Source: Acidimicrobiales bacterium
GTDB lineage: Bacteria; Actinomycetota; Acidimicrobiia; Acidimicrobiales; RAAP-2
Length of the DNA: 36,697 bases
Reading direction: 5' to 3'
Assembly: GCA_036511155.1 (NCBI GenBank)
Contig: DATCCR010000245.1
Coordinates: 1 to 36,697, forward strand
Shown here: positions 4,721 to 36,697 of the stretch, piece after piece
Numbering within the stretch: the stretch's first letter is position 1
Layout: each line of letters starts with the position of its first letter
Program-made: the position numbers and the translations under genes
The notes under the pieces: generated by a model
Database searches by the model: none
Told to the model about the DNA's origin: nothing
What the model saw: the letters and a program-made list of their open reading frames with translations, nothing else

Positions 4721-4726
4721 CCAGGC

Positions 4727-5155: not shown

Positions 5156-5163
5156 GTAAAGAT

Positions 5164-18634: not shown

Positions 18635-18770
18635 CCTGGCCCTGCCTAGTTCCTCAGTCGCCGGTGCCCCCGCTTGCTCCAGTAGTACCTCGTGACCATC
18701 CGCAGCGCGACTTGCCCGGATGTGCAGGTGTGGGGGGCCGCAGGTGGGGTCTGATTGGCGATTTGCGAGC

Positions 18771-19351: not shown

Positions 19352-19549
19352 ATGAATCACCACATGGAAATCACACGCGCGATCGAGCGGAGCCGCGCAC
19401 GGACGGAGCAGGCAGAACGCCAGCTCCGGAAGCTTCGCGGCGAACCACTCGCTGCACCGCTCGCCGAACTGGACAGCCTGCTCGTCTACGAGCTGGGCCT
19501 GGAAGCACGCCTCTCCGAGATCCTCGACCGGACCGCAGTCCTGCGGTAG
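19352..19549 (+). CDS. small hypothetical coiled-coil protein
   Basis: ORF 19352..19549 has AAGGAA 7 nt upstream of its ATG. The product is charged and helical (ERSRARTEQAERQLRKLRGE...). Confidence 0.35.
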   Translation: MNHHMEITRAIERSRARTEQAERQLRKLRGEPLAAPLAELDSLLVYELGLEARLSEILDRTAVLR

Positions 19550-19740
19550 CTCCACCCAACGCACGGGGCCACCTGGCACTCCGGCGCCACCCCACCGTTG
19601 TCGGGAACCTCACGCCGCACGGTCGGATGCACGGTCGGATGCCGGGGCTGATCGGATCCGTTCCCGGTACCTCCGTGCATGGGCGTCGCCCGGCCCGCCT
19701 GCGGCTACGTTGAGACGGAAATCGACCGGGAGGAGTGCAG

Positions 19741-25262: not shown

Positions 25263-26873
25263 TCACGCCTCCAGCACCACCGGCCCTTCGCCCGACGCCC
25301 GCGGCCATCCCTGGGCCACGAAGTGGTCGGCCCACCGCCCCCGCCCGGTCGACCGCAACCGCTCCAGGTACCAGGGCACGTCGACCCGGCTGTGCCAGGG
25401 CCCGCCGCCGGTCAGCACCGTCCACAGCGGGTCGACCCCTGCCGGTGAACGGGCCAGGGCGTCACTGCCCCAGTCGGCCAGCAGGGCCAGGGCGTGCTCG
25501 ACCACATCGGGGCGGTCGGCCACCAGGTCGTGCTGCTCGTAGGGGTCGGCGACCACGTCGAACAGCTGCACCTCGGGGAAGCCGTGGAAGGCGTCGTGGT
25601 AGGTGCGGATGCAGATCCACCGGTCGAAGCGGACGGCGCGCTGGGCCGTCCACGCCCCGTGGGAGAGGACGAGGTGGTCCCGTCCCGTGGGCCGGCCGTC
25701 GAGGAGCTCAGCGGCGAACGACCGTCCATCCCACCGCTCCGGGACGCGTGCGCCGGCCAGCTCCAGCACGGTGGCCATGACGTCGATCTGGTAGTGGAAC
25801 CCGCTGTCGACCGAACCGGCCCCGGGCGAATCGGCTCCGGGTGGGCCGGTATCTACCGAGTCGGCACCGACTGGGCCGGCACCCGCCGAGCCGGCCGCGA
25901 CCGAATCGGCACCGACCGGGCCGGCGGCGGCGCCCCGCGGCTCGAGACCGGGCCACACCAGCACGAACGGCAGCCGGGTGGTGATCTGGTCGGCCGTCTG
26001 GTGGTCGCAGTAGATGCCGAGCTCGCCGAGGTTCTCGCCGTGGTCGGCCGAGACCATGACAGCCGTCTCGGAGGTGAGGCCGAGGTCGTCGACGACCCCG
26101 AGCAGACGGCCGATCTGGTGGTCGGCGTACCGCACCCCGGTGTCGTAGCCGTCGTAGACCCGGCGTACGTCGTCCATCGACGAGGCCTGGAGCGGTTGGC
26201 GTGGGTAGCGGTCCCACACGTCCCGGGGGCCGAAGCCGGCCAGCTCCTGGGCCGAGTGGGGTCCGGGGAGCGACCAGTGGGCGGCCCGGACCTCCTCGGT
26301 CAGCCACGCCGGGACCGGGTCGTCGTCGAACGGATCGCCGAACGAGGCCGGCGTGCGGTAGGGCGTGTGGGGGTCCCACAGGTGGACGTGGAGGAACCAG
26401 TCCTCGCCGGGCCCGTTGCGGAGGAGCCAGTCCTCGGCGGCGGCGGCCACCTGGTCGGCCGTCTCGAGGCCCCGGGTGCCGAGGTTGACGCACTCGTTGA
26501 ACCCGGCGTCGAAGTGGTACGCCGAGTGGCGCTCGGCGAAGGTGCTGATCGACGCCGTCCACATCCCGAGATCGCGCAGCGGGGCCATCCAGCTGTGCGC
26601 GGCGGCCTGGGTGCGGAAGCCACGGCGCGTGCCCTCGGGGAAGAGGTCGGTGGCCGGGCCCCCGTGGTTGACGGCTCCGTTGCGGATGCCGAACTGTCCG
26701 GTCGACAGGGCCGAGCGCGACGGCAGGCACGGGGTGTCCGAGGCGTGCACGTTGTCGAACCGCACGCCGCGGGCGGCCAGTCCGTCGATGACCGGGCTGG
26801 TGGGCCGGCCGTACCCGTAGCAGCCCAGGTGGTCGGGCCGCAGGGTGTCGACGTCGATGTAGATCAGGCGCAT
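25263..26873 (-). CDS. sulfatase-fold (alkaline phosphatase superfamily) protein with canonical Cys-type CxPxR motif and no signal peptide
   Basis: This lies in ORF 25263..26954, with the start at ATG 26873 (MRLIYIDVDTLRPDHLGCYGY). The formylglycine motif is DTPCLPSRSALSTGQ (Cys codon 26727-26729). Metal and active-site blocks are HVHLWDPHTPY and SADHGENLGE. A Gly/Ala/Pro/Asp/Ser repeat insertion is encoded at about 25800-25935. Confidence 0.85.
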   Translation of the reverse strand: MRLIYIDVDTLRPDHLGCYGYGRPTSPVIDGLAARGVRFDNVHASDTPCLPSRSALSTGQFGIRNGAVNHGGPATDLFPEGTRRGFRTQAAAHSWMAPLRDLGMWTASISTFAERHSAYHFDAGFNECVNLGTRGLETADQVAAAAEDWLLRNGPGEDWFLHVHLWDPHTPYRTPASFGDPFDDDPVPAWLTEEVRAAHWSLPGPHSAQELAGFGPRDVWDRYPRQPLQASSMDDVRRVYDGYDTGVRYADHQIGRLLGVVDDLGLTSETAVMVSADHGENLGELGIYCDHQTADQITTRLPFVLVWPGLEPRGAAAGPVGADSVAAGSAGAGPVGADSVDTGPPGADSPGAGSVDSGFHYQIDVMATVLELAGARVPERWDGRSFAAELLDGRPTGRDHLVLSHGAWTAQRAVRFDRWICIRTYHDAFHGFPEVQLFDVVADPYEQHDLVADRPDVVEHALALLADWGSDALARSPAGVDPLWTVLTGGGPWHSRVDVPWYLERLRSTGRGRWADHFVAQGWPRASGEGPVVLEA

Positions 26874-27003
26874 GGCACGTTCCGTGGTGGGGTGGTGGTG
26901 AGCGTAGCGGGGGCCGTGCCGCCGGGGCCGGTTCCTCGGGGACGTCCGGCGCACCGAACCGGTTCGCAGCCACGGAGGTGGGACGCCCGGCGCCGGGCGG
27001 GCG

Positions 27004-28950
27004 TCAGTGGATGACCGCCTGGGTGATGACCGCCGGCCGGGTGCCGTGGATCCCGACGGGACGGCCCGGCATCGACAGCCACGACTCGGTGGCGAAGACC
27101 ATCAGGAAGAGGTGCCAGACGGGCCAGAGGAAGACCCAGCCGATGTGGCGTCCCTGGTGGAAGCCGAGGGTGAGTACGGCCTGGAGGGCCATGAAGACGA
27201 TTTCGGCGATGACGTAGCCGCCCAGGAAGATGAGGATCACGTCCCGCTGCGTCCCCTCGAACATGGCGGTCAGCAGGAGGTAGAGCGGCAGCAGCAGGCG
27301 GGCCGGCGCGAACGTGCACTTCACGAACTGCTGGGTCTGGTTGAACCACACCTTGGGGGTGGCCACCCCGGCCCGGTAGGGGCCGTGGCGCGACTGGTTG
27401 TGGTGGACGGCCCGGCCCCAGCGCACCCGCTGCTCGCGGATCTCGGCGTAGGTCGGGGGCACGTCCTCGTAGACGACGATCTTGGTGTCCATCCACGTGC
27501 GGTAGCCGAGGCGGCTGGCCCGCAGGGTGAAGTCGCCGTCCTCGCCGTTCATCCCGACGGTGAACCCGCCGAGTCCGACCGCCACGTCGCGCCGGAACGC
27601 GGTGAACACGCCGGGCACCACGTTGACCCCGTCCACCGTCTGGATGGTCCGGTGGTTGAGGCCGAACTGCTTGAGCTCCTCGAACAGCCGCAGGTGCGGG
27701 AAGACCGAGCGGTGACCGGCCCGGGGGAAGCACATGGGCTCGACCAGGCCGATCTGGGGGTCCTCGAACCAGCGGGGCGTGTAGTACAGCGACCACTCGC
27801 CGACGATGGTGTCGGCGTCGATGCGCACCACGATGTCGGTGGCCGTGAGGGCGAGGGCGGCGTTGAGCGACTCGGACTTCCCGCCGTGGCGCCCGTCGTG
27901 GACCTCGCCGGTGGCGTGGGCGAAGGCGGCCATGGTGGCCAGGGCCAGATCCCTGGTGCCGTCGGACGACCCGTCGTTCATGACGATCACCCGCACCGGT
28001 CCGCCGTAGCGCCCGGCGGCCACGTCGATGGCGGTCAGGGTCGCCTCGATGACCTCCTCCTCGTTGTAGGCGGGGATGATCACGTCGATCGGCGGACGGT
28101 CGTCCGTGACCGGCGGGTCGGGACGGACGGTGAACCCGTTGACGATGGCCAGCAGCATCGTTCGGACCACGAACGTGCCGGCGGCGAAGGGAACCGGCAG
28201 CACGAGAGCCAGGGCCGGCCGGAACGCCGGGTCCGCCAGGTGGAAGATCCACAGCAGCCCGGCCATGCAGATGGCCATGGAGGCCACCGTCACGCCGAGC
28301 AGCGTCGCCGCGTCGGAGAACCGCGGCCGCTTGGCGAAGGGCACCCTGCTCGGCATGGGCAGGGCGTAGTTGAGGTACTGCATGCGGGTCATGGCCAGGA
28401 TGGCCACGCCCACCGCCACGAAGTTGCCGAGCAGGGTGGTCGGGGCGACCGGCACCCCGATGAGGACCTCGACCACCACCAGGGTCGCATCCATGAAGGC
28501 CATCACGAACAGGTAGATGAGGGCCTGGAAGGCGACCAGACCCTTGCGCCAGATGTTGCCCCGGCCGAGCACGGCCAGGCAGACGATGGTGGCGACGGTC
28601 AGGAAGCGCAGGCCCAGGGTGAAGCCGGCCAGGTAGCCGCTGACCTCGGCCGGCGACCGCACCACCGAGCTGCAGACGCGGGTCACCAGATCCGCGTACA
28701 TCTGGTCGGGACTCCAACTCCCCCGGAGCGAGTGGTAGGCGACCATCAGGGTGAGGAACAGGAGGCCGAAGGCCGGTACCAGCCAGTACGACGGCAGCTT
28801 GGGTTTCGGCAGCAGCACCAGTGCCATGCCGTCGCCCTGGTCGTCGGGGTAGCGCATGACGAGCGGGTAGGCCAGGAAGGCCAGCAGCACCGCGTCGGTG
28901 CCGAGCAGCAGCGCCAGCGGCTGGATCCCGGTGAGGAGGTCGAAGTGCAT
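27004..28950 (-). CDS. processive family-2 glycosyltransferase (polysaccharide synthase-like) with long multi-TM N-terminal extension
   Basis: This is ORF 27004..28950. The GT2 motifs are VIIPAYNEE, NDGSSDG, GKSESLN, IDADT, GEDGDFT and QRVRW. About 7 hydrophobic helices precede the catalytic domain and about 4 follow it. The overlapping ORFs 27007..28962 (+) and 26864..28717 (-) are shadow ORFs. Confidence 0.85.
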   Translation of the reverse strand: MHFDLLTGIQPLALLLGTDAVLLAFLAYPLVMRYPDDQGDGMALVLLPKPKLPSYWLVPAFGLLFLTLMVAYHSLRGSWSPDQMYADLVTRVCSSVVRSPAEVSGYLAGFTLGLRFLTVATIVCLAVLGRGNIWRKGLVAFQALIYLFVMAFMDATLVVVEVLIGVPVAPTTLLGNFVAVGVAILAMTRMQYLNYALPMPSRVPFAKRPRFSDAATLLGVTVASMAICMAGLLWIFHLADPAFRPALALVLPVPFAAGTFVVRTMLLAIVNGFTVRPDPPVTDDRPPIDVIIPAYNEEEVIEATLTAIDVAAGRYGGPVRVIVMNDGSSDGTRDLALATMAAFAHATGEVHDGRHGGKSESLNAALALTATDIVVRIDADTIVGEWSLYYTPRWFEDPQIGLVEPMCFPRAGHRSVFPHLRLFEELKQFGLNHRTIQTVDGVNVVPGVFTAFRRDVAVGLGGFTVGMNGEDGDFTLRASRLGYRTWMDTKIVVYEDVPPTYAEIREQRVRWGRAVHHNQSRHGPYRAGVATPKVWFNQTQQFVKCTFAPARLLLPLYLLLTAMFEGTQRDVILIFLGGYVIAEIVFMALQAVLTLGFHQGRHIGWVFLWPVWHLFLMVFATESWLSMPGRPVGIHGTRPAVITQAVIH

Positions 28951-29055
28951 CGGTGGTCGTAGCCCCTGTCGTGCTGTGCGTATCGGGTCATCCGGTGGCG
29001 CCGTGCGACGCCCGTGTCCCGGTGCCTCACCCTACCAAGAACATCACTCTCCGTG

Positions 29056-29071
29056 AAAGTGCGTGCACTTT
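29056..29071. promoter_or_regulatory. perfect 7-2-7 inverted repeat AAAGTGC-GT-GCACTTT in the divergent GT2 / sulfatase-MFP intergenic region (candidate operator)
   Basis: Read directly. The repeat is flanked by CGTGAA (29052-29057) and GCGTGAA (29072-29078). It sits in the locally AT-richer core of the 279-nt intergenic region. Confidence 0.3.
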
Positions 29072-29229
29072 GCGTGAACATTGAGTACGATTGCCGTGGG
29101 GCAGGGTGCGCAGTGGTCCGGACGGGGCTCGTCGGCGTTCCTGCAGAGCGGAAGGGCAGGAGCCATGGGACTGGAACGACGACGCCACGCGGGGATGACC
29201 GCACCGACGGGACAAGGGGGAGTCGCCCG

Positions 29230-32076
29230 GTGAATCTCCTCATCTGTTCCCTCGACACCCTCCGGGCCGACCATCTGAGCTGTCTGGGCAACGACCGCCA
29301 GCTGACGCCCAACCTCGACCGCATCGCCGCAGAAGGCGCCCTCTTCCGCCAGACCTACGCCACCGACATCCCGACCCAGCCGTCGCACACGGCCCTCTTC
29401 ACCGGCAAGTTCGGGATCAACTCCGGCATCGTCTCCCACTTCCACCCGGCGGCCTACCTGCCCGAGGAGACGCTGTGGCTCCCTTCCGAGCTGCGGCGCC
29501 AGGGCTACGTGACGGGGGCGGTGGACCATCTGTTCGCCATGAAGGACTGGTTCATCCGCGGCTACGACGACTACATGCCTCCTCCCGGACGGTCCCGCTC
29601 ACCGGGGTCGGTCATCAACGGCATCGGACTGCCGTGGATCAGCGAGCACAAGGAGCGGGACTTCTTCCTGTTCCTCCACTTCTGGGATGCCCACATCCCC
29701 TACGTGCCGCCGTCGCCGTTCAAGGAGCGCTACACGCACGGCACGTCGGGGCGGATCGACCCGGACATCACGGCCAAGCTCGAGGGGCGACCCAGCTACC
29801 CCCTGTTCAAGCAGAACCTGTACGACTTCCTCGACGCCATGCCGAACCTGGAGTACATCGCCGACCTGTACGACGCCGAGGTGGCCTACCTCGACTTCGA
29901 GATCGGGCGCATCTTCCAGCACCTCGAGCAGGAGGGCCTGCTGGACGACACCATGGTCGTCCTGTTCGGCGACCACGGCGAGAACATGACCGAGCACGAC
30001 GCCTGGTTCGACCACGCCGGCCTGTACGACTCGGTCACCCACGTGCCGCTGCTGATGTGGGCGCCGGGAAGGATCCCGGTGTGCGACACGGGCGCCATGG
30101 TCACCCTGACCGACGTGTTGCCGACCATCCTGGAGGCGCTCGGCATGCCCGAGCCCGAGGGGATCGACGGACGATCGCTCTTCCCCCTGATGCGGGGCGA
30201 GTCCACGACCCACCGCGACGCCGTCATGCTGAGCGAGGCCACCTGGCAGGCCGCCCGGGCCGTGCGCACCCCGGAGTGGAAGTACATCAAGTTCCTGCAG
30301 TCCACCATCTACGGCCGCGACGGCGTCGAGCTCTACGACCTGGCCAACGACCCCCACGAGCAGGTCAACGTGGCCGACCAGCACCCCGAGGTGGTGGACG
30401 AGCTGGGCAAGCGCCTCAACCACTGGGTCTCGGCCCAGCTCGGTGGCCGCCCCGACCCGATGCTCTCGGTGCTCGATGCCGGCCTGCCGGCAGTGGCCCG
30501 GCTCAACGACGTCATCGCCGGGCAGAGCAGACCCCGAAACGACGTGCCCACCCCGATCGATCCCGGCCCCGGACTCGTCCCGGCCGGGGTTGCGGCCGCA
30601 GTAGCCGGGGCTGTGGCCGCCTCCGACCACCTCGATCCCGGCAGCACCTCCGGCCCGTCCGGAGGCCCGGCGGTCGGGTCGGCGGACCCGGCCTCCGCTC
30701 CCCCCGTCGCCCTTCCCACCGCGCCCCCCGGGGACGGAGGGAAGTTCGCACCGGCCAACCCGCACAAGCGACGGCTGCGCGGGGCCCGTGGCGTCGTCGT
30801 CGGCGTCTTGGTGCTCGGCTCCGCCGTGCTCCTCGGCACGGCCGTCAACGGCCTGCTGCTGGCCAGCCCGCTGTCGGCCACCGGGGTGGTCCAGCCCACT
30901 CTGGACGCCCAGCTCAACATGCCCGGCACCGGTCCGATCATCTCGCTCCCGGTCCACGTGGGCGAGATGGTCCGCGCCGGCCAGGTGCTGGCCAGTCAGG
31001 ACACCAGCGCCCTCGACGCCCGGCTCGCCGCCGACCAGTCCAAGCTGGCGGCCGACCAGGCGACCCTGTCCGCTCAGCAGGCCGGCGGCCAACCGGCTCA
31101 GGTCCAGCAGCTCCAGGACCAGGTGGCGGCGGCCCAGACGGCGTGGTCGTCGGCCCAGCAGAGGATGGGGGGGACCCAGTCGACCACCGCCGCCGCCGTG
31201 TCCTCGGCCCAGGCCCAGGTGGCCACCGAGCAGGCGCTGCTGACGTCCGACCAGCAGACCTACCAGGACGACATCCCGGCCTGCACCTCGGCCACGCCCC
31301 CCTCCTACTGCGCGGCCGACCAACGCCAGGTGCAGGTCGACCAAGGCACGCTGACCGCTGACCGGAACACACTGGCCGAGGCCGTGGCCAACCAGCAGTC
31401 CCAGGCCACCGGGGCCCAGAACGCCGTCGACCAGGCTGCGGCCGCCGTCACCACCGCCCAGGCCGCCCTGGCCGCCGGAAGCGCCCCGGCCACTCCGGAG
31501 CAGATCGCCGCTACTCGTGCATCGATCCAGCAGGACCAGGCAGCCATCGCCGCCGACCAGGCCAAACTGGCCCAGGCCGTGGTGGTGGCCCCGTTCGACG
31601 GCGTGGTGTCGGCTGTCAACGGCTCCGTCGGCGAAGTGGTCTCGAGCCAGGGCGTCAAGCAGGCCTCGGCGTCGGCCGCGCTCAGCCAGGGCCAGACCAC
31701 CGGCATCCAGCTGTTCCCCCAGGGGCCGCAGTCGGGCTCGGGTGGACCGTCCCCGGCCTACGCCGCCCTCATCACCCTCGACTCGGTGCAGAACCAGATG
31801 GTCGTCCAGGTCCCCGAGACCTCCATCAACGACGTCCACATCGGACAGAAGGCCAGCGCCACGCTGCCGGCCGTGCCCGGGACCACCCTCGACGTCGAGG
31901 TCAGCCGGATCGAGCGCACCCCGGTCACCCAGAACGGCCAGACCTACTTCCGGGTCGACCTGGTGACCACGGCGAAAGGGCCCCACACCCTGGCCTACGA
32001 CCCGAACGACCCGTCGCTGACGTCGATCCCGACGCCGGGCAAGCTGGCCGGGTTCACCGTCGACGTGTCGTTCTGA
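29230..32076 (+). CDS. fusion protein: sulfatase-fold domain (Thr in nucleophile position) + single TM helix + HlyD/membrane-fusion-protein-type coiled-coil adaptor domain
   Basis: This lies in ORF 29014..32076, with the start at GTG 29230 (AAGGGGGAG about 10 nt upstream), giving (M)NLLICSLDTLRADHLSCLG. The N-terminal domain is paralogous to 25263..26873 (FGDHGENM, LHFWDAHIPY), but its nucleophile motif is DIPTQPSHTALFTG. A Pro/Ala linker follows, then KRRLRGARG and a TM helix (VVVGVLVLGSAVLLGTAVNGLLL). The MFP pattern comes next: GPIISLPVHVGEMVRAGQVLASQD, a long Q/A coiled coil, VVAPFDGVVSAVNG, and a C-terminal beta barrel. Confidence 0.8.
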   Translation: MNLLICSLDTLRADHLSCLGNDRQLTPNLDRIAAEGALFRQTYATDIPTQPSHTALFTGKFGINSGIVSHFHPAAYLPEETLWLPSELRRQGYVTGAVDHLFAMKDWFIRGYDDYMPPPGRSRSPGSVINGIGLPWISEHKERDFFLFLHFWDAHIPYVPPSPFKERYTHGTSGRIDPDITAKLEGRPSYPLFKQNLYDFLDAMPNLEYIADLYDAEVAYLDFEIGRIFQHLEQEGLLDDTMVVLFGDHGENMTEHDAWFDHAGLYDSVTHVPLLMWAPGRIPVCDTGAMVTLTDVLPTILEALGMPEPEGIDGRSLFPLMRGESTTHRDAVMLSEATWQAARAVRTPEWKYIKFLQSTIYGRDGVELYDLANDPHEQVNVADQHPEVVDELGKRLNHWVSAQLGGRPDPMLSVLDAGLPAVARLNDVIAGQSRPRNDVPTPIDPGPGLVPAGVAAAVAGAVAASDHLDPGSTSGPSGGPAVGSADPASAPPVALPTAPPGDGGKFAPANPHKRRLRGARGVVVGVLVLGSAVLLGTAVNGLLLASPLSATGVVQPTLDAQLNMPGTGPIISLPVHVGEMVRAGQVLASQDTSALDARLAADQSKLAADQATLSAQQAGGQPAQVQQLQDQVAAAQTAWSSAQQRMGGTQSTTAAAVSSAQAQVATEQALLTSDQQTYQDDIPACTSATPPSYCAADQRQVQVDQGTLTADRNTLAEAVANQQSQATGAQNAVDQAAAAVTTAQAALAAGSAPATPEQIAATRASIQQDQAAIAADQAKLAQAVVVAPFDGVVSAVNGSVGEVVSSQGVKQASASAALSQGQTTGIQLFPQGPQSGSGGPSPAYAALITLDSVQNQMVVQVPETSINDVHIGQKASATLPAVPGTTLDVEVSRIERTPVTQNGQTYFRVDLVTTAKGPHTLAYDPNDPSLTSIPTPGKLAGFTVDVSF

Positions 32077-32433
32077 GGCTCCCGGCGAGGCGGCCCCGGT
32101 CGGCGTGACGGGCAGGGGCGCGCCGGGGACGGGCCGGGCTCCGGGCCGACGGGCCGGCGGGCCGGCGGGCGGCCGGTGTCCTCCGAACCCTCGGCGCCCC
32201 CGACGACCACGCCCCCGGCCGGCACGGGGAGATGACCAGGCACCCGTGCTCCCGCTTCAGGTCCGGCGGAACCGGCGGGAACGCCCCGACCGCCGCTCGT
32301 GCGTCATCGGTCCGACCGGGACCCAGCGTCTGACCACGCGTGCCATGCCTCGAGGATGTGGCGGAAGCCGAGTCGGACCAGGAGAGGGTGACGGCCCCGG
32401 CTGGTACGGGGGATGGGTCGACAGGTGACTCGT

Positions 32434-32481
32434 CCATGTCGTCGACCGGCCATGTCGTCGACCGGCCATGTCGTCGACCGG
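32434..32481. repeat. 16-nt perfect tandem repeat x3 (CCATGTCGTCGACCGG)
   Basis: Read directly: units lie at 32434-32449, 32450-32465 and 32466-32481. Each contains a minus-strand ATG and a GTCGAC palindrome. Confidence 0.95.
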
Positions 32482-32483
32482 CG

Positions 32484-33035: not shown

Positions 33036-33060
33036 CGCGGGTCCCCGAAGGACCGACCCG

Positions 33061-34227
33061 TCAGGAGCCGACGAACGGGAACCCGAAGTACGGCGTCTGG
33101 CCCATGGTGGTGAAGGCGCTCAAGCCGAGCTGACCCGGGGTGTCGGCCAGGGTCCAGTCGGAGGTGGACTTCGAGTCGTAGTAGAGGACGGCCTTGAGGC
33201 CGGGGAAGGTGACCGGAAGCACCGAGGTGAGCTGGGCCAGGTAGGTGCCCTGGTCGATGGTGGCGCCGGTCTCGCCCAGCATGAGGGGCTTGCCGTGGGT
33301 GATCCAGTTGGCGTAGAAGGGCAGGAACTGGGTGGTGAGCATGGCCGGGTCCTGCCTGCGGTCGTAGCCGTCCCAGCCGATCCAGTCCACGTAGGAGTCA
33401 CCCGGGTAGTAGGCCGAGCCGAACGTGGCCCCGTTGATCGAGGGGCACCACACGAAGGCCACGTTGGCCGCCCCCCGGTTCTGGAAGATGGTCCAGATGT
33501 GCTGCCAGGCCTGGATGTAGCCGGTCGCCCCGAGCGTGCCCAGGCAGCCGGCGGTGCGGGGCAGGCTGACGAGGTTCATCTCCCAGAACCAGCGCAGGAA
33601 CACCGGGCGGCCGTAGGCCTTGAGCGTGTCGGCGTAGCTGGTGATGAGCGTGTCCTGGCTGCCGTTGACGATCGAGGCGTCCGACGTGCAGGTCCAGTCG
33701 ACCACCGGGGTGGCGCCGGTCGCCGCCAGGGCGGCGAGGACAGAGGACTTTACCGGTGCGGACCAGGGCTGGTACACGTGGATCAGCCCGAGGGGTCGGC
33801 CGAGCGTCCCGTCGAAGTTGCCGATCTGGGCCAGCTCCTGGCGCACGTCGGCCTGGGCCTGGGACTCGGCCTCGTGGGGGGCCACGAAGGCGCCGAGGTA
33901 GGCGCTCGTCCTGGGCACGGCCGGCTTCGACAGGGTCGACGACGTGGCGGCGTGCGGGGGGGCCGGGCCACTGGCCGCGGTGGCCGACTGGGTGGCGGCC
34001 ACGGTGGCCAGCGTGCCCACGGTGACCAGACCGGCGACGAGCCCACGGGCCCGGCGCGAGGTCAGCACGCCGGTCCAACGGGCGGACCGGCGGGTGCCGG
34101 CCCCATGGGCGGTACGGCGGGCGGCGTGGGCCCGAGGGCGGCGGGCGGCTCCCGGGGCGGTCTCCATTGCGGTCCTCTCGTGCTGCTCATGCTCCGATGT
34201 CGGGTGCGGCGGCGTCTCGTGGTCCAT
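33061..34227 (-). CDS. secreted glycoside hydrolase family 26 (beta-mannanase-like)
   Basis: This lies in ORF 33061..34248. I prefer ATG 34227 as the start (MDHETPPHP...). An Arg-rich n-region and TM/signal segment are present (RRARGLVAGLVTVGTLATVAATQSATA). GH26-like blocks are YLGAFV, GRPLGLIHVYQPW, GRPVFLRWFWEMN (acid/base Glu) and KPLMLGETG (nucleophile Glu). Confidence 0.8.
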   Translation of the reverse strand: MDHETPPHPTSEHEQHERTAMETAPGAARRPRAHAARRTAHGAGTRRSARWTGVLTSRRARGLVAGLVTVGTLATVAATQSATAASGPAPPHAATSSTLSKPAVPRTSAYLGAFVAPHEAESQAQADVRQELAQIGNFDGTLGRPLGLIHVYQPWSAPVKSSVLAALAATGATPVVDWTCTSDASIVNGSQDTLITSYADTLKAYGRPVFLRWFWEMNLVSLPRTAGCLGTLGATGYIQAWQHIWTIFQNRGAANVAFVWCPSINGATFGSAYYPGDSYVDWIGWDGYDRRQDPAMLTTQFLPFYANWITHGKPLMLGETGATIDQGTYLAQLTSVLPVTFPGLKAVLYYDSKSTSDWTLADTPGQLGLSAFTTMGQTPYFGFPFVGS

Positions 34228-34263
34228 GTCACTCGTGGTCCATGTCACTCGTGGTCCATGTCA
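34216..34263 (-). repeat. 16-nt tandem repeat x3; on the minus strand each unit reads TGA-C-ATG-GAC-CAC-GAG (a stop-start cassette)
   Basis: Read directly. Plus-strand CAT occurs at 34225, 34241 and 34257. Plus-strand TCA occurs at 34229, 34245 and 34261. The period is exactly 16 nt. Confidence 0.95.
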
Positions 34264-36697
34264 GATGATCCCGGCGACCGGTGCGGGGGGCTGCGACACG
34301 GCACCGAGGAACGGGGCGTCGCCGAAGGCGAACACGCCGCCGTCGGCCCCGACCATCCAGTAGCCCTTGCCGTCGCCCGTCGGGGCCATGCCGACGATGG
34401 GCGCCCCGAGGTTCACGTAGCGGAGGCTTCCCTCGAATGCGGCATCGCCGAAGGGGAACACGGCGCCGTGGCGGGTGACCATCCAGTACCCGCCGCCGTC
34501 GCCGGTAGCCGCCAGGCCGACCACGGGGTCGAGCGTGATCCGTCCGCCCGTCGAGCCGTGGAAAGCGGCGTCGCCGTAGGCGAACACGCCACCGTCGGCG
34601 GCCACCAGCCAGTAGCCCCGGCCGTCCGACGGCGTGGCCATGCCGACGATGGGCTGGGACAGGGAGATGGCCCCGGTCGAGCCGTAGAAGCCGGCGTCGC
34701 CGAAGGCGAAGATGCCGCCGTCGGAGGCGACCTCCCAGTAGCCGAGACCGTCCGGGGTGGGCGCCAGGCCCACGATCGGCCGGTTGAGCTGCTTGCCCCC
34801 CATGGAGCCCTCGAAGCTGGCCGCGCCGAAGGCGAAGATGCCGCCGTCGGAGGCGACCATCCAGTAGCCGTCGTGCAGCGGCGTGTAGGCCGCCCCCACC
34901 ACCGGGGCGACCAGCGGCTTGCCGGTCATCGACCCGAAGAAGGCGTTGGTCGTCCCATGGGCCGACGGCACCGACCCCATCGGCCAGATCGAGCCGTCAG
35001 CACCGAACACCGCGTACCCCGACGACGGGCCGACGAGCGCCAGGGCGGCCGGCGGGCCGGCCACGAACGTGTAGTTGGCGGCGTGGAGGGTGCCCGGGGT
35101 GCACGTGATGTCGTAGCTGCCCTGGAACGACGTGGCCGATGCGGTGGACGTGCAGGCGGCGGCGCCGGTGACGACGGACGCCCCGTCGGAATCGACGAAG
35201 CCGGTCAGGTGGTAGGTCAGAGCGGGCAGGGCCGAGCCCACGGTGCCGCTCTGCGGGTCGGGCACGACGGTCAGGACCGCCGGTGCCACGTCGAACGTCG
35301 TCGTGGCCGAGGCCGGGTAGTAGAAGAACGACCCGGCCTGGCTCGAGGTCACCGTGCACGGCCCGGCCCCGATCAGGAACAGTCGGACCAGCGCGCCGGT
35401 GCACGAACCCTGGGCGGCGTTGGTCACGCCGAGGCCGGAGTCGACCGTCGGGGCGATGTTGACCGACTGGTCGCCGTAGGTGACCGGCGGCAGGCTCGGG
35501 TAGGTGATCGACTGCTGGGCCCGGGTCACCAGGAAGGCGGCCGAGCCGTCCGGACCCGAGAACAGCCCGGTGGCCAGCGTGCCCGGCGCCAAGGTGGTCA
35601 TGGCCGCCGGGGCCGCGGCGTTGACGCCGGGGGTGCCGTCGCCCAGCTGGCCGAAGTAGTCGCCGCCCCACATCCACGGCACGCCGTTGGAGGTCAGCGC
35701 GTACGACGCCGTCTGCCCGGCCGAGATCTGTACGAAGGTGGTGGTCGGCGGCAGGCCGAGGGGCTGGACGGGCACACTGCTGTCGACGGGCAGGGTGGCC
35801 ACCAGGGCCGACGACAGCTGGCCGAAGACGTCCGACCCCCAGGCGAAGACGAGGCCCGAGGTGGTCAGGGCCAGACTGTGGGACCCGCCGGCGGCGACCG
35901 ACGCCACCGGGGCCCCGGCCGGCATCGAGACCTGCTGCGGGGTGGCGGCGTCGGCGGTGGTGCCGGTACCGAGCTGACCCGAGGCGTCGAACCCCCAGGA
36001 GTAGACGCTGCCGTCGGCGGCCACGGCCAGGCTGTGGGCGGTGCCGGCGGCCAGAGCGGAGAAGGTGACCCCGGCGGGCGCGGCGACGGGGGTCGGGGTC
36101 GTGCGGCTCGTGGTCGTGCCGTCTCCGAGTTGGCCGCGGGTGTTCGCTCCCCAGGCGTAGACCTGGCCGGTCGAGGTGAGGGCCAGGCTGTGATCGCCGC
36201 CGGCCGCTATGGCCGTGAAGGTCACGCCGGCGGGCGCGGTGACGGGAGTGGGCACGTCCACCGGGATGGTCGTGCCGTTCCCGAGCTGGCCGAACAGGTC
36301 GGCACCCCAGGCGTAGACCTGGCCGGTCGAGGTCAGGGCCAGGGCGTGGGCGCCGCCGGCCGCCACCGCGGTGACCACGACGGGTGGACCTCCCGATGGC
36401 GTCGCCACGTCGACCGGCACCGGCGCCGTCGACCCCACCTTCGCCCCGTCACCCAGCTGGCCGAGCGAGCCCGCGCCCCACGAGTACACCCGGCCCGACG
36501 TGGTGAGCCCGACGCTGAACGCGCCCCCGGTGGCCATCGTCGCGAAGCTCTGGCCGACGGGCGCCGTCACCTGGACGGGGAGGGTCACCCCGGTGGCCGA
36601 CCCGCCACCCAGGACGCCGTTGCCCACCTGGCCGGCGTCGTTGCCACCCCATCCGTAGAGCGCCCGGGACGGCAGCGTGGGGGCGGCGAGCAGTCGG
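34261..36697 (-). CDS. large multi-domain protein (5' end outside the window): RCC1-type beta-propeller repeats + MBG-like Ig domains + six C-terminal GYW-type repeats
   Basis: ORF 34261..36627 continues without a stop to the window edge, where the upstream codons read ...SRALYGWGGNDAGQVGNG. At least 6 RCC1 repeats are present (GQVYAWGA..FGQLGNGT, HSLALTS). The MBG-like segment is LPALTYHLTGFVDSDGASVVTGAAACTSTAS..SFQGSYDITCTPGTLHAANYTF. The last part holds six repeats of about 41 aa with the consensus GYWxVxxDGGxFxFGDAxFxGSxxxxxLxxPIVGxAxTxDG. Confidence 0.85.
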   Translation of the reverse strand, partial: RLLAAPTLPSRALYGWGGNDAGQVGNGVLGGGSATGVTLPVQVTAPVGQSFATMATGGAFSVGLTTSGRVYSWGAGSLGQLGDGAKVGSTAPVPVDVATPSGGPPVVVTAVAAGGAHALALTSTGQVYAWGADLFGQLGNGTTIPVDVPTPVTAPAGVTFTAIAAGGDHSLALTSTGQVYAWGANTRGQLGDGTTTSRTTPTPVAAPAGVTFSALAAGTAHSLAVAADGSVYSWGFDASGQLGTGTTADAATPQQVSMPAGAPVASVAAGGSHSLALTTSGLVFAWGSDVFGQLSSALVATLPVDSSVPVQPLGLPPTTTFVQISAGQTASYALTSNGVPWMWGGDYFGQLGDGTPGVNAAAPAAMTTLAPGTLATGLFSGPDGSAAFLVTRAQQSITYPSLPPVTYGDQSVNIAPTVDSGLGVTNAAQGSCTGALVRLFLIGAGPCTVTSSQAGSFFYYPASATTTFDVAPAVLTVVPDPQSGTVGSALPALTYHLTGFVDSDGASVVTGAAACTSTASATSFQGSYDITCTPGTLHAANYTFVAGPPAALALVGPSSGYAVFGADGSIWPMGSVPSAHGTTNAFFGSMTGKPLVAPVVGAAYTPLHDGYWMVASDGGIFAFGAASFEGSMGGKQLNRPIVGLAPTPDGLGYWEVASDGGIFAFGDAGFYGSTGAISLSQPIVGMATPSDGRGYWLVAADGGVFAYGDAAFHGSTGGRITLDPVVGLAATGDGGGYWMVTRHGAVFPFGDAAFEGSLRYVNLGAPIVGMAPTGDGKGYWMVGADGGVFAFGDAPFLGAVSQPPAPVAGII

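What the first reader, a model, noticed from the sequence alone, without database searches (positions are those of the whole stretch)
25263..32076. Divergent polysaccharide-synthase-like locus: multi-TM GT2 + two cytoplasmic sulfatase-fold paralogs, one fused to an HlyD-type adaptor
On the minus strand, a GT2 (27004-28950) carries every processive-synthase motif (NDGSSDG, GKSESLN, IDADT, GEDGDFT, QRVRW) and an unusually long N-terminal block of about 300 aa with about 7 hydrophobic helices. A sulfatase-fold gene (25263-26873) follows 130 nt downstream. On the plus strand, divergent across a shared 279-nt intergenic region, a second sulfatase-fold domain is fused to a TM helix and an HlyD/MFP coiled-coil domain (29230-32076). 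The window contains no ABC, RND or MFS pump, no Wzx/Wzy and no lipid-carrier GT. Two precedents from established knowledge are relevant. Processive synthases can work with HlyD-like adaptors, as in cyanobacterial extracellular cellulose export. Alkaline-phosphatase-superfamily enzymes can decorate a nascent polymer, as with BcsG and phosphoethanolamine cellulose. My inference is a synthase-dependent machine that makes a phospho- or sulfo-ester-modified exopolysaccharide. I do not recognise this composition from the characterised actinobacterial systems (CslA/GlxA, MatAB). GH26 (33061-34227) and GH114 (1638-2600) in the same window fit a glycan theme.
Basis: partly seen in the sequence, partly recalled or inferred. 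Interest (0 to 1): 0.75.

Follow-up and report, generated by a model that had tools for sequence, protein, structure and literature searches.

The report
Sulfur-linked polysaccharide synthase with fused adaptor
This locus encodes an uncharacterised actinobacterial machine, a membrane polysaccharide synthase paired with an efflux-type adaptor protein that carries an altered sulfatase-like enzyme on its cytoplasmic end, and relatives of the synthase sit next to sulfoquinovose- and sulfate-activation genes, which suggests a sulfur-bearing secreted glycan of a kind not yet described.

Summary
The GT2 (27004-28950, -) folds like the hyaluronan, cellulose and chitin synthases. The plus-strand gene (29230-32076) is a conserved fusion: sulfatase-fold domain, disordered linker, one TM helix, then a full HlyD-type adaptor. 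In 65 related loci the invariant core is GT2 plus adaptor (56 within 1 kb). Secreted GH26-like glycanases join in 24 loci, and the two sulfatase-fold genes in 25 and 20. No pump is present. Two corrections apply. First, both sulfatase-fold proteins are cytoplasmic, so the BcsG analogy (periplasmic decoration) fails. Second, the fused domain carries Thr-x-Pro-Ser-His where sulfatases carry Cys-x-Pro-x-Arg, so it is not a canonical sulfatase. One new observation emerged: 21 of about 66 relatives' loci carry a UDP-sulfoquinovose synthase homologue and/or CysH or CysD-CysN(C), often in the same operon, and 13 of 16 alphaproteobacterial relatives carry SqdB (seen with a BcsB-like gene in Ruegeria). 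None of these genes is in this window. My best reading is a synthase-dependent exporter of a sulfur-bearing (sulfoquinovose-containing or sulfated) beta-glycan. This is a new variant of a known kind, and the role of the sulfatase-fold pair is unresolved.

The parts
25263..26873 (-). Cytoplasmic Cys-type sulfatase-fold enzyme ('sulf1'), 536 aa. It has no signal peptide and an intact C-L-P-S-R formylglycine motif.
   Evidence: PF00884 E 1e-32. CxPxR is present in 110 of 120 family members and in the alignment. It co-occurs with apT in 20 loci and never occurs there without it. The family also occurs in unrelated contexts in other phyla.
25812..25925 (-). In-frame 15/30-nt tandem-repeat expansion that inserts about 35-45 Gly/Ala/Asp/Ser-rich residues into a loop of sulf1. 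It is specific to this lineage.
   Evidence: TRF rows. The insertion is absent from or shorter in homologues (alignment).
27004..28950 (-). Membrane-integrated processive-type GT2 synthase, 648 aa. Layout: N-terminal 7-8 helix block (aa 1-285, with the invariant D37-G39-D40-G41 motif), GT-A domain (aa 286-522, ending in QRVRW), C-terminal helices (aa 523-626).
   Evidence: Pfam. AF2 pLDDT 91, pTM 0.90. The top Foldseek hits are HAS, PcManGT, BcsA and chitin synthases. Invariant columns are listed. The family stays about 648 aa long down to 31% identity.
29044..29080 (.). Conserved operator-like palindromes in the divergent promoter region (TCAC-N5-GTGA and AAGTGC-GT-GCACTT).
   Evidence: This is a conserved block in the alignment of 11 orthologous intergenic regions. 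AAGTGCNNGCACTT occurs once in the window, against 0 expected.
29165..29233 (+). Leader uORF of 22 codons. It is opened by a conserved GGGCAGG-N-ATG block, and its TGA stop overlaps the GTG start of the fusion gene (GTGA).
   Evidence: In 11 of 12 close loci a uORF of 18-78 codons starts at the conserved ATG and ends 4 nt into the fusion gene. The peptide sequence is not conserved.
29230..30504 (+). Cytoplasmic Thr-type sulfatase-fold domain ('apT', aa 1-425) of the fusion protein. D9, T49, H53 and D248-H249 are invariant. T-Q-P-S-H replaces C-x-P-x-R.
   Evidence: PF00884 and SGSH_C. Invariant columns. TxPxH occurs in 96 of 98 relatives. T49 aligns with the formylglycine position and H53 with the Arg of 7oz8. 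The fold is closest to S1 carbohydrate sulfatases.
30505..30858 (+). Disordered Pro/Ala/Gly-rich linker (aa 426-520), then an Arg/Lys-rich stretch and a single TM helix (aa 521-543).
   Evidence: AF2 gives pLDDT below 50 for residues 424-522 and a helix at 521-543. The alignment is variable and gap-rich here, and KRRLRGARG precedes the helix.
30859..32076 (+). Extracytoplasmic HlyD/MFP adaptor. It has lipoyl-like strands, a very long alpha-hairpin (aa 593-781) with a largely conserved Cys pair at the tip, and a beta-barrel.
   Evidence: HlyD_3 27.8 bits > 22.2. NCBIfam RND_mfp and type_I_hlyD partial hits. AF2 secondary structure. PDB sequence hits to RND/MacA-type MFPs. The gene is adjacent to the GT2 in 56 of 65 loci.
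33061..34248 (-). Secreted or membrane-anchored GH26-like glycanase with an Arg-rich N-terminus followed by a hydrophobic helix. Both catalytic Glu are kept (FWEMN, LGETG).
   Evidence: PF02156 30.5 bits > 20.2. The best PDB match is the C. thermocellum Endoglucanase H GH26 module, E 1e-17. GH26-like genes lie within 10 kb of the GT2 in 24 of 65 loci, in several gene orders.
34261..36627 (-). RCC1-repeat beta-propeller protein with an MBG domain and C-terminal repeats. It is a frequent neighbour in the close clades and its role is unknown.
   Evidence: Pfam. It is present in 13 of 65 loci.

Best explanation
The locus encodes a synthase-dependent glycan secretion module.

Shown:
- A multi-TM GT2 of the hyaluronan/cellulose/chitin-synthase fold.
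- A dedicated HlyD-type membrane-fusion protein encoded divergently from it.
- A secreted GH26-like glycanase nearby, and no transporter.

Inferred mechanism: the GT2 polymerises a UDP-sugar at the cytoplasmic face and threads the chain through its own channel. An oligomer of the adaptor, anchored by one TM helix beside the synthase, acts as co-polymerase and as a conduit through the thick wall of a monoderm cell. This would resemble the roles of Alg44 and of the cyanobacterial HlyD-like protein. The GH26 enzymes would trim or release the polymer.

Inferred from family-wide gene neighbourhoods, not from this window: the sugar carries sulfur. Relatives of this GT2 sit in operons with a UDP-sulfoquinovose synthase homologue plus APS reductase. 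In Acidimicrobiales they sit with CysD and CysN-APS kinase (PAPS synthesis). The product is therefore probably an anionic sulfoquinovose-containing or O-sulfated beta-glycan.

Speculative: in this lineage a Thr-nucleophile derivative of a carbohydrate-sulfatase scaffold has been fused to the adaptor's cytoplasmic N-terminus, and a Cys-type paralog follows the synthase. Both work in the cytoplasm, tethered next to the GT domain. They may transfer or edit a sulfuryl or phosphoryl group on the donor or on the nascent chain before translocation.
For: Synthase type:
- All GT2 motifs are present.
- The Foldseek top 30 consists of HAS, BcsA, PcManGT and chitin synthases.

Adaptor:
- HlyD_3 scores above threshold, and the model shows the lipoyl, hairpin and barrel architecture.

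Coupling:
- The MFP lies within 1 kb of the GT2 in 56 of 65 non-redundant loci, and within 10 kb in 62 of 65. This holds in divergent, upstream and downstream arrangements across Acidimicrobiales, Streptosporangiaceae, Solirubrobacteraceae, Actinospica, Streptacidiphilus and Kitasatospora.
- No pump was found among the window ORFs scanned or in the Pfam-labelled neighbourhoods.

Hydrolase:
- GH26-like genes occur in 24 of 65 loci, with both catalytic Glu kept.

Sulfatase-fold genes:
- The order apT->MFP->GT2 appears as separate adjacent genes in more distant clades, and apT and MFP are fused in about 90 protein clusters. This is a Rosetta-stone link.
- The apT catalytic set is invariant.

Sulfur link:
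- SqdB homologues match SQD1 at E 7e-96 and carry the Y-H-x-T-K motif. They lie within 10 kb in 13 actinobacterial loci, including L013, a 71%-identical orthologue with the same fusion. They also occur in 13 of 16 alphaproteobacterial relatives. In the one such operon I dissected, they sit with BcsB-like and Sel1 genes.
- CysH, CysD or CysN(C) genes occur in further loci, including the run cysD-cysNC-GH26-MFP-GT2 in L037.
- In total, 21 of about 66 loci carry a sulfur gene, in about 10 distinct gene orders.
Against: - This window contains no SqdB, CysH, CysD, CysN or sulfotransferase gene. In its closest relatives the flanks are collinear housekeeping genes, so synteny there says little about function.
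- Only 2 of about 13 close-clade loci show a sulfur gene within 10 kb.
- Two Acidimicrobiales cases (L090, L092) place cysDNC between the GT2 and the rpo/rps operons. That could be a housekeeping copy inherited in place.
- No canonical sulfotransferase was found in any cluster.
- The sulf1 family is widespread in unrelated contexts.
- The polymer, the donor specificity and the oligomeric state of the adaptor are all untested.
- The GT2 scores far below every curated NCBIfam synthase cut-off.
- The cytoplasmic location rests on the absence of a signal peptide and on the positive-inside rule, not on experiment.
Confidence: 0.6

Rival explanations
1. The GT2 makes a glycolipid rather than a polymer, for example a sulfoquinovosyl or oligoglycosyl lipid. 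The MFP would help move that lipid to the cell surface.
For: The only well-known bacterial use of UDP-sulfoquinovose is the sulfolipid SQDG (PMC13436972). The GT2 gives a weak Pfam GT21 hit (ceramide glucosyltransferase type; 22.4 bits, cut-off 21.7). A SfLAP (sulfolipid-addressing protein family) gene lies at 19735-20412.
Against: The nearest folds are channel-forming polymer synthases, and QRVRW is conserved. Secreted GH26 glycanases with intact catalytic Glu accompany the GT2 in 24 loci. In the one alphaproteobacterial operon dissected, the SqdB-linked relative sits with BcsB-like and Sel1-repeat proteins, which are typical polysaccharide-secretion parts. SfLAP is syntenic only in the close clade.
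Confidence: 0.12
2. The sulfatase-fold enzymes decorate the exported polymer with phosphoethanolamine, phosphoglycerol or sulfate in the way BcsG does, acting after translocation.
For: Alkaline-phosphatase-superfamily enzymes do decorate nascent cellulose (PMC8892547). The apT metal and nucleophile set (Asp, Thr, Asp-His) resembles that of the phospho-transferases LtaS and EptA (from memory).
Against: BcsG's catalytic domain is periplasmic, sits behind five TM helices and uses Ser278. Here both proteins start directly with the first strand of the fold. The fused one is N-terminal to a TM helix that is preceded by KRRLRGARG. The stand-alone apT proteins of other clades have no TM helix at all. 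By sequence and fold, apT is closest to S1 carbohydrate sulfatases, not to LtaS or EptA.
Confidence: 0.07
3. GT2+MFP is an exopolysaccharide system, but the sulfatase-fold genes and the sulfur-activation genes are neighbours for another reason: shared regulation, sulfur scavenging or inherited gene order. The polymer would be an ordinary neutral beta-glucan or beta-mannan.
For: The sulf1 family occurs alone in many other contexts. Two thirds of the family's loci show no sulfur gene within 10 kb. The GH26 enzyme is closest to a lichenase-type GH26 that acts on neutral glucans (substrate from memory). cysDNC next to rpoBC in L090 and L092 looks like a housekeeping copy.
Against: The apT gene lies in the GT2 cluster in all 25 loci where I found it. 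The order apT-MFP-GT2 and the fusion itself argue for a physical coupling. SqdB lies inside the MFP-GT2 operon in several independent arrangements and in a second phylum. The chance that a single-copy gene lies within 10 kb is below 1% per locus.
Confidence: 0.18
4. The fused sulfatase-fold domain is a cytoplasmic sensor or regulator of the synthase, a functional analogue of the PilZ domain of Alg44. It would bind a sulfated or phosphorylated ligand such as PAPS, PAP or a UDP-sugar rather than modify the product.
For: The architecture of cytoplasmic domain, TM helix and MFP-like domain is that of Alg44 (from memory; the co-polymerase role is cited). The locus has no PilZ or GGDEF domain, so another control input is plausible. 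The formylglycine machinery cannot act on Thr (from memory).
Against: The whole metal-binding and nucleophile set is invariant over sequences down to 48% identity, which is the pattern of an active enzyme. A catalytically standard paralog (sulf1) travels with it.
Confidence: 0.08

Closest known systems
Thermosynechococcus vulcanus extracellular cellulose system (BcsA homologue + HlyD-like protein + BcsZ-like endoglucanase + TolC-like; Maeda et al. 2018, as summarised in PMC8892547)
   Same: A processive GT2 synthase is partnered with an HlyD-type adaptor in place of BcsB, together with a glycoside hydrolase (for the known system; here).
   Different: Here there is no TolC-like partner, and none is expected in a monoderm actinobacterium. 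The GT2 has a 285-aa N-terminal TM block and no PilZ domain. The hydrolase is GH26-like. The adaptor carries a cytoplasmic enzyme domain. I did not test sequence relatedness to the cyanobacterial proteins.
Alg8-Alg44 of alginate synthesis (Pseudomonas)
   Same: A GT2 synthase works with a co-polymerase built as cytoplasmic domain, single TM helix and periplasmic MFP-like domain (architecture from memory; co-polymerase role).
   Different: The cytoplasmic module here is a sulfatase-fold enzyme domain, not a c-di-GMP-binding PilZ domain. There is no AlgK/AlgE-type outer-membrane part. The proteins are not recognisably homologous at the family level.
BgsA-BgsB mixed-linkage beta-glucan synthase of Sinorhizobium meliloti (from memory; I could not retrieve the paper)
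   Same: A GT2 and an HlyD-family protein form a two-gene core. The GH26 enzyme here is closest to a lichenase-type GH26.
   Different: A tblastn search of the GT2 against 72,556 plasmids, which to my knowledge include pSymB, gave no Sinorhizobium hit at E <= 1e-10. The GT2 is therefore not a close BgsA relative. There is no c-di-GMP-binding tail.
BcsG phosphoethanolamine transferase of E. coli-type cellulose systems
   Same: An alkaline-phosphatase-superfamily enzyme is physically associated with a polysaccharide synthase complex.
   Different: BcsG is periplasmic, is anchored by five N-terminal TM helices and uses Ser278 with Zn. The enzymes here are cytoplasmic, belong to the PF00884 S1-sulfatase scaffold and use Thr (apT) or Cys/formylglycine (sulf1).
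SqdB/SQD1-dependent sulfoquinovose pathways (SQDG sulfolipid; Sulfolobus N-glycan via Agl3)
   Same: Relatives of this GT2 are encoded next to SqdB homologues with the SQD1-type Y-x-x-x-K catalytic motif and next to sulfite-supplying CysH (enzyme chemistry in PMC4388408).
   Different: The known sulfoquinovosyl transferases are SqdX/SQD2 and SqdD; from memory these are GT4 and GT8 enzymes. They act on diacylglycerol. Here the partner is a multi-TM GT2 with an adaptor and glycanases. This window itself has no sqdB.

Membership tests
Membrane-integrated processive GT2 synthases (BcsA / HAS / PgaC / chitin synthase type) | GT-A domain with the D, DxD, (T/G)ED and Q(R/Q)xRW motifs | tested here: met
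   NDGSSDG, IDADT, GEDGD and QRVRW are read in the translation. D326, D378, D380, E470, D471, Q507, R508, R510 and W511 are invariant in 39 sequences.
Membrane-integrated processive GT2 synthases (BcsA / HAS / PgaC / chitin synthase type) | Overall fold with TM helices packed against the GT domain | tested here: met
   AF2 pLDDT 91. The best Foldseek PDB hits are 8smm (HAS), 6yv7, 7sp7, 5ej1 (BcsA) and chitin synthases, E 1e-13 to 1e-9. TM-scores are modest (0.4-0.68) because the N-terminal block has no counterpart.
Membrane-integrated processive GT2 synthases (BcsA / HAS / PgaC / chitin synthase type) | Processive polymerisation coupled to translocation | not testable with these tools
   This needs an in vitro reconstitution.
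PNAG synthase PgaC/IcaA (NCBIfam TIGR03937) | Score above the curated equivalog cut-off | tested here: not met
   101.6 bits against a cut-off of 422.3. This is the best of all curated synthase models but falls far short.
Cellulose synthase BcsA | Family model score and a C-terminal PilZ domain | tested here: not met
   TIGR03030 scores 36.5 bits against 699. There is no PilZ hit in Pfam.
HlyD / membrane-fusion protein (MFP) family | N-terminal TM anchor, lipoyl-like domain, alpha-helical hairpin and beta-barrel | tested here: met
   HlyD_3 27.8 bits > 22.2. The AF2 model has a TM helix at 521-543, strands at 549-589, a hairpin at 593-781 and a barrel at 784-947. There are partial NCBIfam RND_mfp and HlyD hits.
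HlyD / membrane-fusion protein (MFP) family | Functional partner is an ABC, RND or MFS transporter encoded nearby | tested here: not met
   No such gene was found among the window ORFs scanned or in the Pfam-labelled neighbourhoods. The constant neighbour is the GT2.
Type I (S1, formylglycine-dependent) sulfatases | C/S-x-P-x-R motif that is converted to formylglycine | tested here: met
   This row is for sulf1 (25263-26873) only: C-L-P-S-R, conserved in 110 of 120 relatives. Activity and the maturation enzyme were not tested, and no FGE gene was seen in the window.
Type I (S1, formylglycine-dependent) sulfatases | C/S-x-P-x-R motif, tested in the fused domain (29230-30504) | tested here: not met
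   T-Q-P-S-H is invariant. Thr aligns with the formylglycine residue and His with the Arg of solved sulfatases. The sulfate-binding Lys position is also replaced. The fold is nevertheless S1-sulfatase-like.
BcsG-type polymer-decorating phosphoethanolamine transferases | Periplasmic catalytic domain behind N-terminal TM helices, with a Ser nucleophile | tested here: not met
   There is no N-terminal TM helix or signal peptide, and the domain lies on the N-in side of the single TM helix. The BcsG features are taken from PMC8892547.
Alg44-type co-polymerase | Cytoplasmic domain, one TM helix and an MFP-like extracytoplasmic domain, encoded beside a GT2 synthase | tested here: met
   Architecture. 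Adjacency.
Alg44-type co-polymerase | Cytoplasmic PilZ domain that binds c-di-GMP | tested here: not met
   There is no PilZ hit. The cytoplasmic domain is PF00884.
GH26 glycoside hydrolases | Family model above threshold and two catalytic glutamates | tested here: met
   PF02156 30.5 bits > 20.2. The PDB hit 2vi0 has E 1e-17, with the query's E in FWEMN and LGETG aligned to the two Glu of HEAN and AEFA.
UDP-sulfoquinovose-dependent glycan pathway | An SqdB/SQD1 homologue encoded with the glycosyltransferase | tested here: inconclusive
   It is absent from this window. It is present within 10 kb in 13 actinobacterial relatives, including the 71%-identical L013, and in 13 of 16 alphaproteobacterial relatives. 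The rest of this genome could not be searched.

The most novel reading that the evidence does not exclude
Actinomycetota, and separately some roseobacter-type and rhizobial Alphaproteobacteria, make a secreted sulfoquinovose-containing (C-sulfonated) or O-sulfated polysaccharide with a synthase-dependent machine of GT2 + MFP (or GT2 + BcsB-like). In Acidimicrobiales, two cytoplasmic sulfatase-scaffold enzymes deliver or edit the sulfuryl group: one has a Thr nucleophile and is tethered to the adaptor, the other is of the formylglycine type. No canonical sulfotransferase is involved. The sulfatase fold would then be working in biosynthesis at the cytoplasmic face of a synthase.
Probability: 0.3. 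Interest if true: 0.88.

Novelty: new variant of a known kind. Interest (0 to 1): 0.72.

Why it matters
If the reading holds, four things follow.

1. **A new exopolysaccharide pathway.** Synthase-dependent exopolysaccharide secretion is poorly mapped in Actinomycetota. This would add a widespread GT2+adaptor module to the short list of CslA/GlxA and MatAB. Cultured carriers (Streptacidiphilus, Kitasatospora, Actinospica) make it directly testable.

2. **A role for adaptors in monoderm cells.** It would give a concrete case in which an efflux-type adaptor serves a glycan synthase in a cell without an outer membrane. That bears on what MFPs do in Gram-positive envelopes.

3. **A new sink for sulfoquinovose.** The link to UDP-sulfoquinovose synthase and PAPS synthesis points to sulfur-bearing bacterial glycans made by heterotrophs in peat and soil and by marine roseobacters. 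A 2026 review treats sulfoquinovose essentially as a phototroph sulfolipid headgroup and does not use the word polysaccharide (PMC13436972). A polymeric sink or source would change that budget.

4. **A new chemistry for the sulfatase fold.** The enzyme here is a Thr-for-formylglycine variant of the carbohydrate-sulfatase scaffold. It is cytoplasmic and physically tethered to a synthase complex. It is a candidate for a new activity in a very well-studied fold.

Tried and rejected
- **rRNA operons in the low-GC stretches.** I suspected that the low-GC, ORF-poor stretches (2600-7100 and 15000-19700) were rRNA operons. Rfam and ARAGORN found nothing.
- **Close BgsA relative.** I tested for this with tblastn against the plasmid collection. 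There was no Sinorhizobium hit.
- **Hidden gene in the 1-kb spacer (32076-33061).** I looked for a conserved gene such as a sulfotransferase. Only the gene ends are conserved in blastn and tblastx against eight orthologous spacers. A weak GNAT signal remains.
- **Riboswitch in the divergent intergenic region.** Rfam at E <= 1 gave only a spurious miRNA hit, and the sigma-70 consensus scan found nothing.
- **Canonical sulfotransferases.** I looked for them in the clusters that carry cysD-cysNC by Pfam-scanning the unassigned neighbours. None was found. Not every ORF of every locus was scanned.
- **N-terminal TM block of the GT2.** It has no Pfam match even at E 0.1.
- **General role for sulf1 from other phyla.** Its contexts there are heterogeneous.
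- **GH114 as part of the system.** I rejected this. It is 23 kb away and does not lie within 10 kb of the GT2 in any related locus.
- **Failed and limited tools.** Five paper look-ups failed with time-outs (four searches; one retrieval), so the BgsAB and Alg44 comparisons rest partly on memory.


Full report

Yes. The three ORFs are present at the stated coordinates. Their third-position GC is 0.91-0.95, typical of genuine genes in this roughly 70% GC sequence.

- **GT2 (27004-28950, -, 648 aa).** It matches Glyco_tranf_2_3, Glyco_trans_2_3 and Glycos_transf_2 at residues 286-573.
- **Sulfatase gene (25263-26873, -).** It begins 130 nt downstream of the GT2 and matches PF00884 (E 1e-32).
- **Plus-strand gene (29230-32076).** It lies 279 nt from the GT2 start. 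It has PF00884 and SGSH_C at the N-terminus. Scanned alone, its C-terminal part matches HlyD_3 above Pfam's gathering score (27.8 vs 22.2 bits).
- **Start codon.** The start at 29230, rather than the upstream GTG at 29014, is supported because every homologue begins MN[LV]...
- **No pump.** I found no membrane pump among the window ORFs I scanned. The only ABC protein is a soluble ABC-F.

**2. What the parts are**

*The GT2.* An AlphaFold2 model built on 39 homologues is confident (pLDDT 91, pTM 0.90). It has seven to eight helices in residues 9-274, a GT-A domain, and then interface and TM helices to residue 626. Foldseek against the PDB returns hyaluronan synthases, the minimal cellulose-synthase-like PcManGT, BcsA and chitin synthases as best matches. 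These are the membrane-embedded, channel-forming polymer synthases. No curated NCBIfam synthase model comes close to its cut-off. The best is PgaC, at 102 bits against 422. So it is of that kind but belongs to none of the named families. The N-terminal block has no Pfam match. It carries an invariant D37-x-G39-D40-G41 motif.

*The fusion protein.* The family alignment and the AF2 model give this layout:
- a very strongly conserved sulfatase-fold domain (aa 1-425);
- a variable, disordered Pro/Ala/Gly linker of about 100 aa;
- a basic stretch (KRRLRGARG) and one TM helix (521-543);
- a canonical adaptor with lipoyl-like strands, an alpha-hairpin of about 2 x 90 residues and a beta-barrel.

A largely conserved Cys pair sits at the hairpin tip. 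By the positive-inside rule, and because MFP domains are extracytoplasmic, the enzyme domain is cytoplasmic. This is an inference, not a demonstration.

*The two sulfatase-fold proteins differ.* They are paralogs (33% identity) but not equivalent.
- The stand-alone one ('sulf1') keeps the C-L-P-S-R formylglycine motif, as do 110 of 120 relatives.
- The fused one ('apT') has an invariant T-Q-P-S-H, as do 96 of 98 relatives.
- In HMMER alignments to solved sulfatases, the Thr falls on the formylglycine residue and the His on the Arg. The sulfate-binding Lys position is also replaced.
- By fold, apT is still closest to S1 carbohydrate sulfatases, not to LtaS or EptA.
- Its metal and nucleophile set (D9, T49, D248-H249) is invariant, which is the pattern of an active enzyme with a changed chemistry.

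*The GH26-like protein (33061-34248).* It has an Arg-rich N-terminus followed by a hydrophobic helix. It keeps both catalytic glutamates. Its closest solved relative is the GH26 module of C. thermocellum Endoglucanase H (E 1e-17). From memory, that module is a beta-1,3-1,4-glucanase.

**3.

I collected 84 loci from GTDB species representatives with the GT2 profile, plus metagenome contigs. I scanned all six-frame ORFs with my own HMMs for the GT2, apT and MFP parts, and with phmmer for sulf1, GH26 and RCC1.

Of 65 non-redundant loci whose GT2 matches full length, N-terminal block included:

| Feature near the GT2 | Loci (of 65) |
|---|---|
| MFP gene within 1 kb | 56 |
| MFP gene within 10 kb | 62 |
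| apT within 10 kb | 25 |
| sulf1 within 10 kb (never without apT) | 20 |
| GH26-like gene within 10 kb | 24 |
| RCC1 propeller within 10 kb | 13 |

The family spans Acidimicrobiales, Streptosporangiaceae, Solirubrobacteraceae and Pseudonocardiaceae. It also includes the cultured Actinospica acidithermotolerans, Kitasatospora sp. MAP5-34 and two Streptacidiphilus strains.

The gene order varies:
- divergent fusion|GT2->sulf1 in the close clade;
- apT->MFP->GT2 as separate adjacent genes at 45-58% GT2 identity;
- apT and MFP as overlapping split genes in L001;
- MFP->GT2 or GT2->MFP alone in the distant clades.

The fusion itself is a family of about 90 protein clusters. Many share their longest contig with a GT2 cluster. 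One genome carries two paralogous loci (contig 1220995: P0025 and P0072 with P0147 and P0193).

The genes are syntenic, the GT2's structural relatives are processive synthases, and the MFP does not keep company with a transporter.

One caveat applies. In the closest relatives even the flanking housekeeping genes (TrpD, acyl-CoA dehydrogenase, SfLAP) are collinear. Only the rearranged, more distant loci carry functional weight.

**4. An unexpected link to sulfur**

An all-against-all clustering of the neighbouring ORFs brought up sulfate-activation genes. Follow-up gave these results.

- **Streptacidiphilus and Kitasatospora.** The order is MFP <- SqdB-like | CysH -> CysD -> CysN -> ABC importer -> GT2.
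- **L033 and L057.** The order is GT2 -> SqdB-like -> (propeller) -> CysH.
- **Actinospica and L061.** The order is SqdB-like -> MFP -> GT2, with cysH-D-N divergent.
- **Identity of the SqdB-like proteins.** They match plant SQD1 over their full length (E 7e-96). Their best NCBIfam hit is UDP-sulfoquinovose synthase, although at 321 bits it is below the 575-bit cut-off. All carry Y-H-[LM]-T-K. [quoted passage not shown] CysH supplies the sulfite.
- **Acidimicrobiaceae (L036-38, L073).** The run is cysD -> cysN-APS kinase fusion -> 1450-aa double-GH26 protein -> MFP -> GT2 ... apT -> sulf1. L090, L092 and L009 also have cysD/N/C beside the cluster.
- **L013.** This is a 71%-identical orthologue of the window's GT2 with the same fusion and sulf1. 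It has an SqdB homologue 1.3 kb after sulf1.
- **Overall count.** 21 of about 66 actinobacterial loci carry at least one of these genes within 10 kb, in about ten different arrangements. A single-copy gene would be that close by chance in under 1% of loci.
- **Alphaproteobacteria.** The next-closest GT2s in the database lack the first ~110 aa. 13 of 16 of them have SqdB within about 3 kb. In Ruegeria atlantica the operon reads hybrid kinase -> SqdB -> BcsB-like -> GT2 -> Sel1-repeat protein. That looks like a Bcs-type secretion system built around a sulfoquinovose supply.
- **A complementary pattern.** Within 10 kb of the GT2, CysH appears only in loci without apT. APS kinase, which makes PAPS, is documented only in apT-bearing loci: the cysN-kinase fusion of L036-38 and L073, and kinase genes in L090 and L092. 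The CysN of L055 has no kinase domain. From memory, actinobacteria assimilate sulfate through APS and use PAPS for sulfotransferases. No canonical sulfotransferase turned up in these clusters.

This window has none of the sulfur genes. For this locus the link is therefore an inference from orthology.

**5. How it most likely works**

*Shown:* the synthase-type GT2, the adaptor, the secreted GH26 enzyme, the absence of a pump, the conserved pairing, and the altered catalytic residues in apT.

*Inferred:*
- The GT2 polymerises and translocates a glycan.
- The adaptor acts as co-polymerase and wall-spanning conduit, as Alg44 does and as the HlyD-like protein does in Thermosynechococcus. There, BcsB and BcsC are replaced by an HlyD-like and TolC-like pair alongside a BcsZ homologue (PMC8892547).
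- The GH26 enzymes trim or release the chain.
- From the family-wide sulfur linkage, the product is probably anionic and sulfur-bearing: sulfoquinovose-containing where SqdB is present, and possibly O-sulfated where PAPS synthesis and apT/sulf1 are present.

*Speculative:* apT, held on a flexible 100-aa tether at the cytoplasmic mouth of the synthase, and sulf1 transfer or edit a sulfuryl or phosphoryl group on the donor or nascent chain before export.

My estimates: about 0.8 that this is a GT2+MFP glycan exporter, about 0.45 that its product carries sulfur, and no more than 0.25 for any specific role of apT.

**6. Rivals**

I considered four alternatives; they are argued in their own sections.
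- A glycolipid synthase with a lipid exporter.
- A neutral beta-glycan system with unrelated sulfur and sulfatase neighbours.
- apT as a PilZ-like regulatory domain.

**7. Comparison with known systems, and novelty**

The system works like the synthase-dependent systems that use an MFP-type co-polymerase (Alg8/Alg44, the cyanobacterial cellulose system, and BgsAB from memory). It fails the membership tests for PgaC, BcsA, BcsG and Alg44, and apT fails the test for canonical sulfatases.

Full-text searches for sulfoquinovose together with exopolysaccharide, polysaccharide, HlyD, cellulose synthase or the carrier genera found no description of such a system. A 2026 review of sulfoquinovose cycling treats it as a phototroph sulfolipid headgroup and never mentions polysaccharides. 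The searched library is incomplete, so this is absence of evidence only.

I class the locus as a new variant of a known kind. It has two unusual features: the sulfatase-fold-to-adaptor fusion and the sulfur-pathway linkage.

**8. Provenance**

The nearest named relatives are Acidimicrobiaceae and Acidimicrobiales MAGs, for example palsa_738 at 91% GT2 identity.

Noticed in passing
window 29165-29233 (and L005-L014, L021): A conserved block (CTGCAGAGCGGAAGGGCAGG-N-ATG) about 65 nt upstream of the fusion gene opens a uORF of 18-78 codons. Its peptide is not conserved. In 11 of 12 close loci it ends in the TGA that overlaps the fusion start codon ([A/G]TGA). This suggests translational coupling or leader control.
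   Followed up: partly
window 29044-29080: Overlapping palindromes (TCAC-N5-GTGA; AAGTGC-GT-GCACTT) form a conserved block in the divergent GT2/fusion promoter region. The second palindrome is unique in the window (0 expected). It may be an operator, but no regulator gene was identified.
   Followed up: partly
window 25812-25925: An in-frame 15/30-nt tandem-repeat expansion inserts about 35-45 residues (GPVGADSV-like) into a loop of the stand-alone sulfatase. The 97%-identical relative has a shorter version, and others have none.
   Followed up: partly
window 32076-33061: This spacer has very high GC (76%) and is not conserved in orthologous loci. It contains a perfect 16-nt x 3.1 tandem repeat (32434-32482). 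An ORF (32054-32908, -) gives a sub-threshold GNAT hit (E 0.003) in the position where L088 has a 157-aa GNAT acetyltransferase.
   Followed up: partly
window 2600-7100 and 15000-19700: Two stretches have lower GC (60-66% against about 71%) and few long ORFs. They contain no rRNA, tRNA or Rfam match. They hold a trypsin-like protease (6076-7092), a methyltransferase (15902-16846), an HxlR regulator (16852-17598) and an HTH_23 protein. They may be acquired DNA.
   Followed up: partly
L080 1922-10441 (Ruegeria atlantica CECT 4292); similar in L070-L084: In Ruegeria atlantica the operon reads hybrid histidine kinase -> SqdB homologue -> BcsB-like protein -> 611-aa GT2 -> Sel1-repeat protein. SqdB lies within about 3 kb of the GT2 in 13 of 16 such alphaproteobacterial loci. 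This looks like a Bcs-type secretion system with its own UDP-sulfoquinovose supply. I found no description of it.
   Followed up: partly
window 28828-28845 (GT2 residues 36-41): The motif D-D-Q-G-D-G lies in the loop after the first TM helix of the GT2. D37, G39, D40 and G41 are invariant in 39 sequences down to 35% identity. Its function and its side of the membrane are unknown.
   Followed up: no
window ~31285-31320 (fusion residues ~686-697); alignment A2 columns ~790-806: A Cys pair (C-TSATPPSY-C) sits at the tip of the adaptor's long alpha-hairpin. It is present in most but not all aligned fusion proteins. A similarly placed pair occurs in the Streptacidiphilus and Acidimicrobiaceae stand-alone adaptors. 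It is probably a disulfide, which fits an extracytoplasmic location.
   Followed up: no
window 19735-20412: This gene belongs to the SfLAP family (sulfolipid-1-addressing protein, PF11139, E 5e-39) and lies 5 kb from the locus. It is syntenic only in the close clade, so it is probably unrelated, but it is notable given the sulfur theme.
   Followed up: partly
window 13679-15220: A DUF222 + HNH endonuclease gene of the kind that is often mobile in Actinomycetota. A homologue sits next to a sulf1 relative in L086.
   Followed up: no
L001 6793-9544; contig of 1,220,995 bp (P0025/P0072, P0147/P0193): In L001 the sulfatase-fold and adaptor parts are two genes that overlap by 8 nt instead of one fusion, and a second apT copy lies beside sulf1. 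One MAG carries two paralogous GT2+fusion loci (GT2s 80% and 55% identical to the window's GT2; fusions 67% and 48% identical to the window's fusion).
   Followed up: no
L003 13854-15770: In a 56%-identity locus without sulfatase-fold genes, the order is GT2 -> MFP followed by a 638-aa Acyl_transf_3/GDSL protein. This hints that other lineages O-acylate the same kind of polymer.
   Followed up: no
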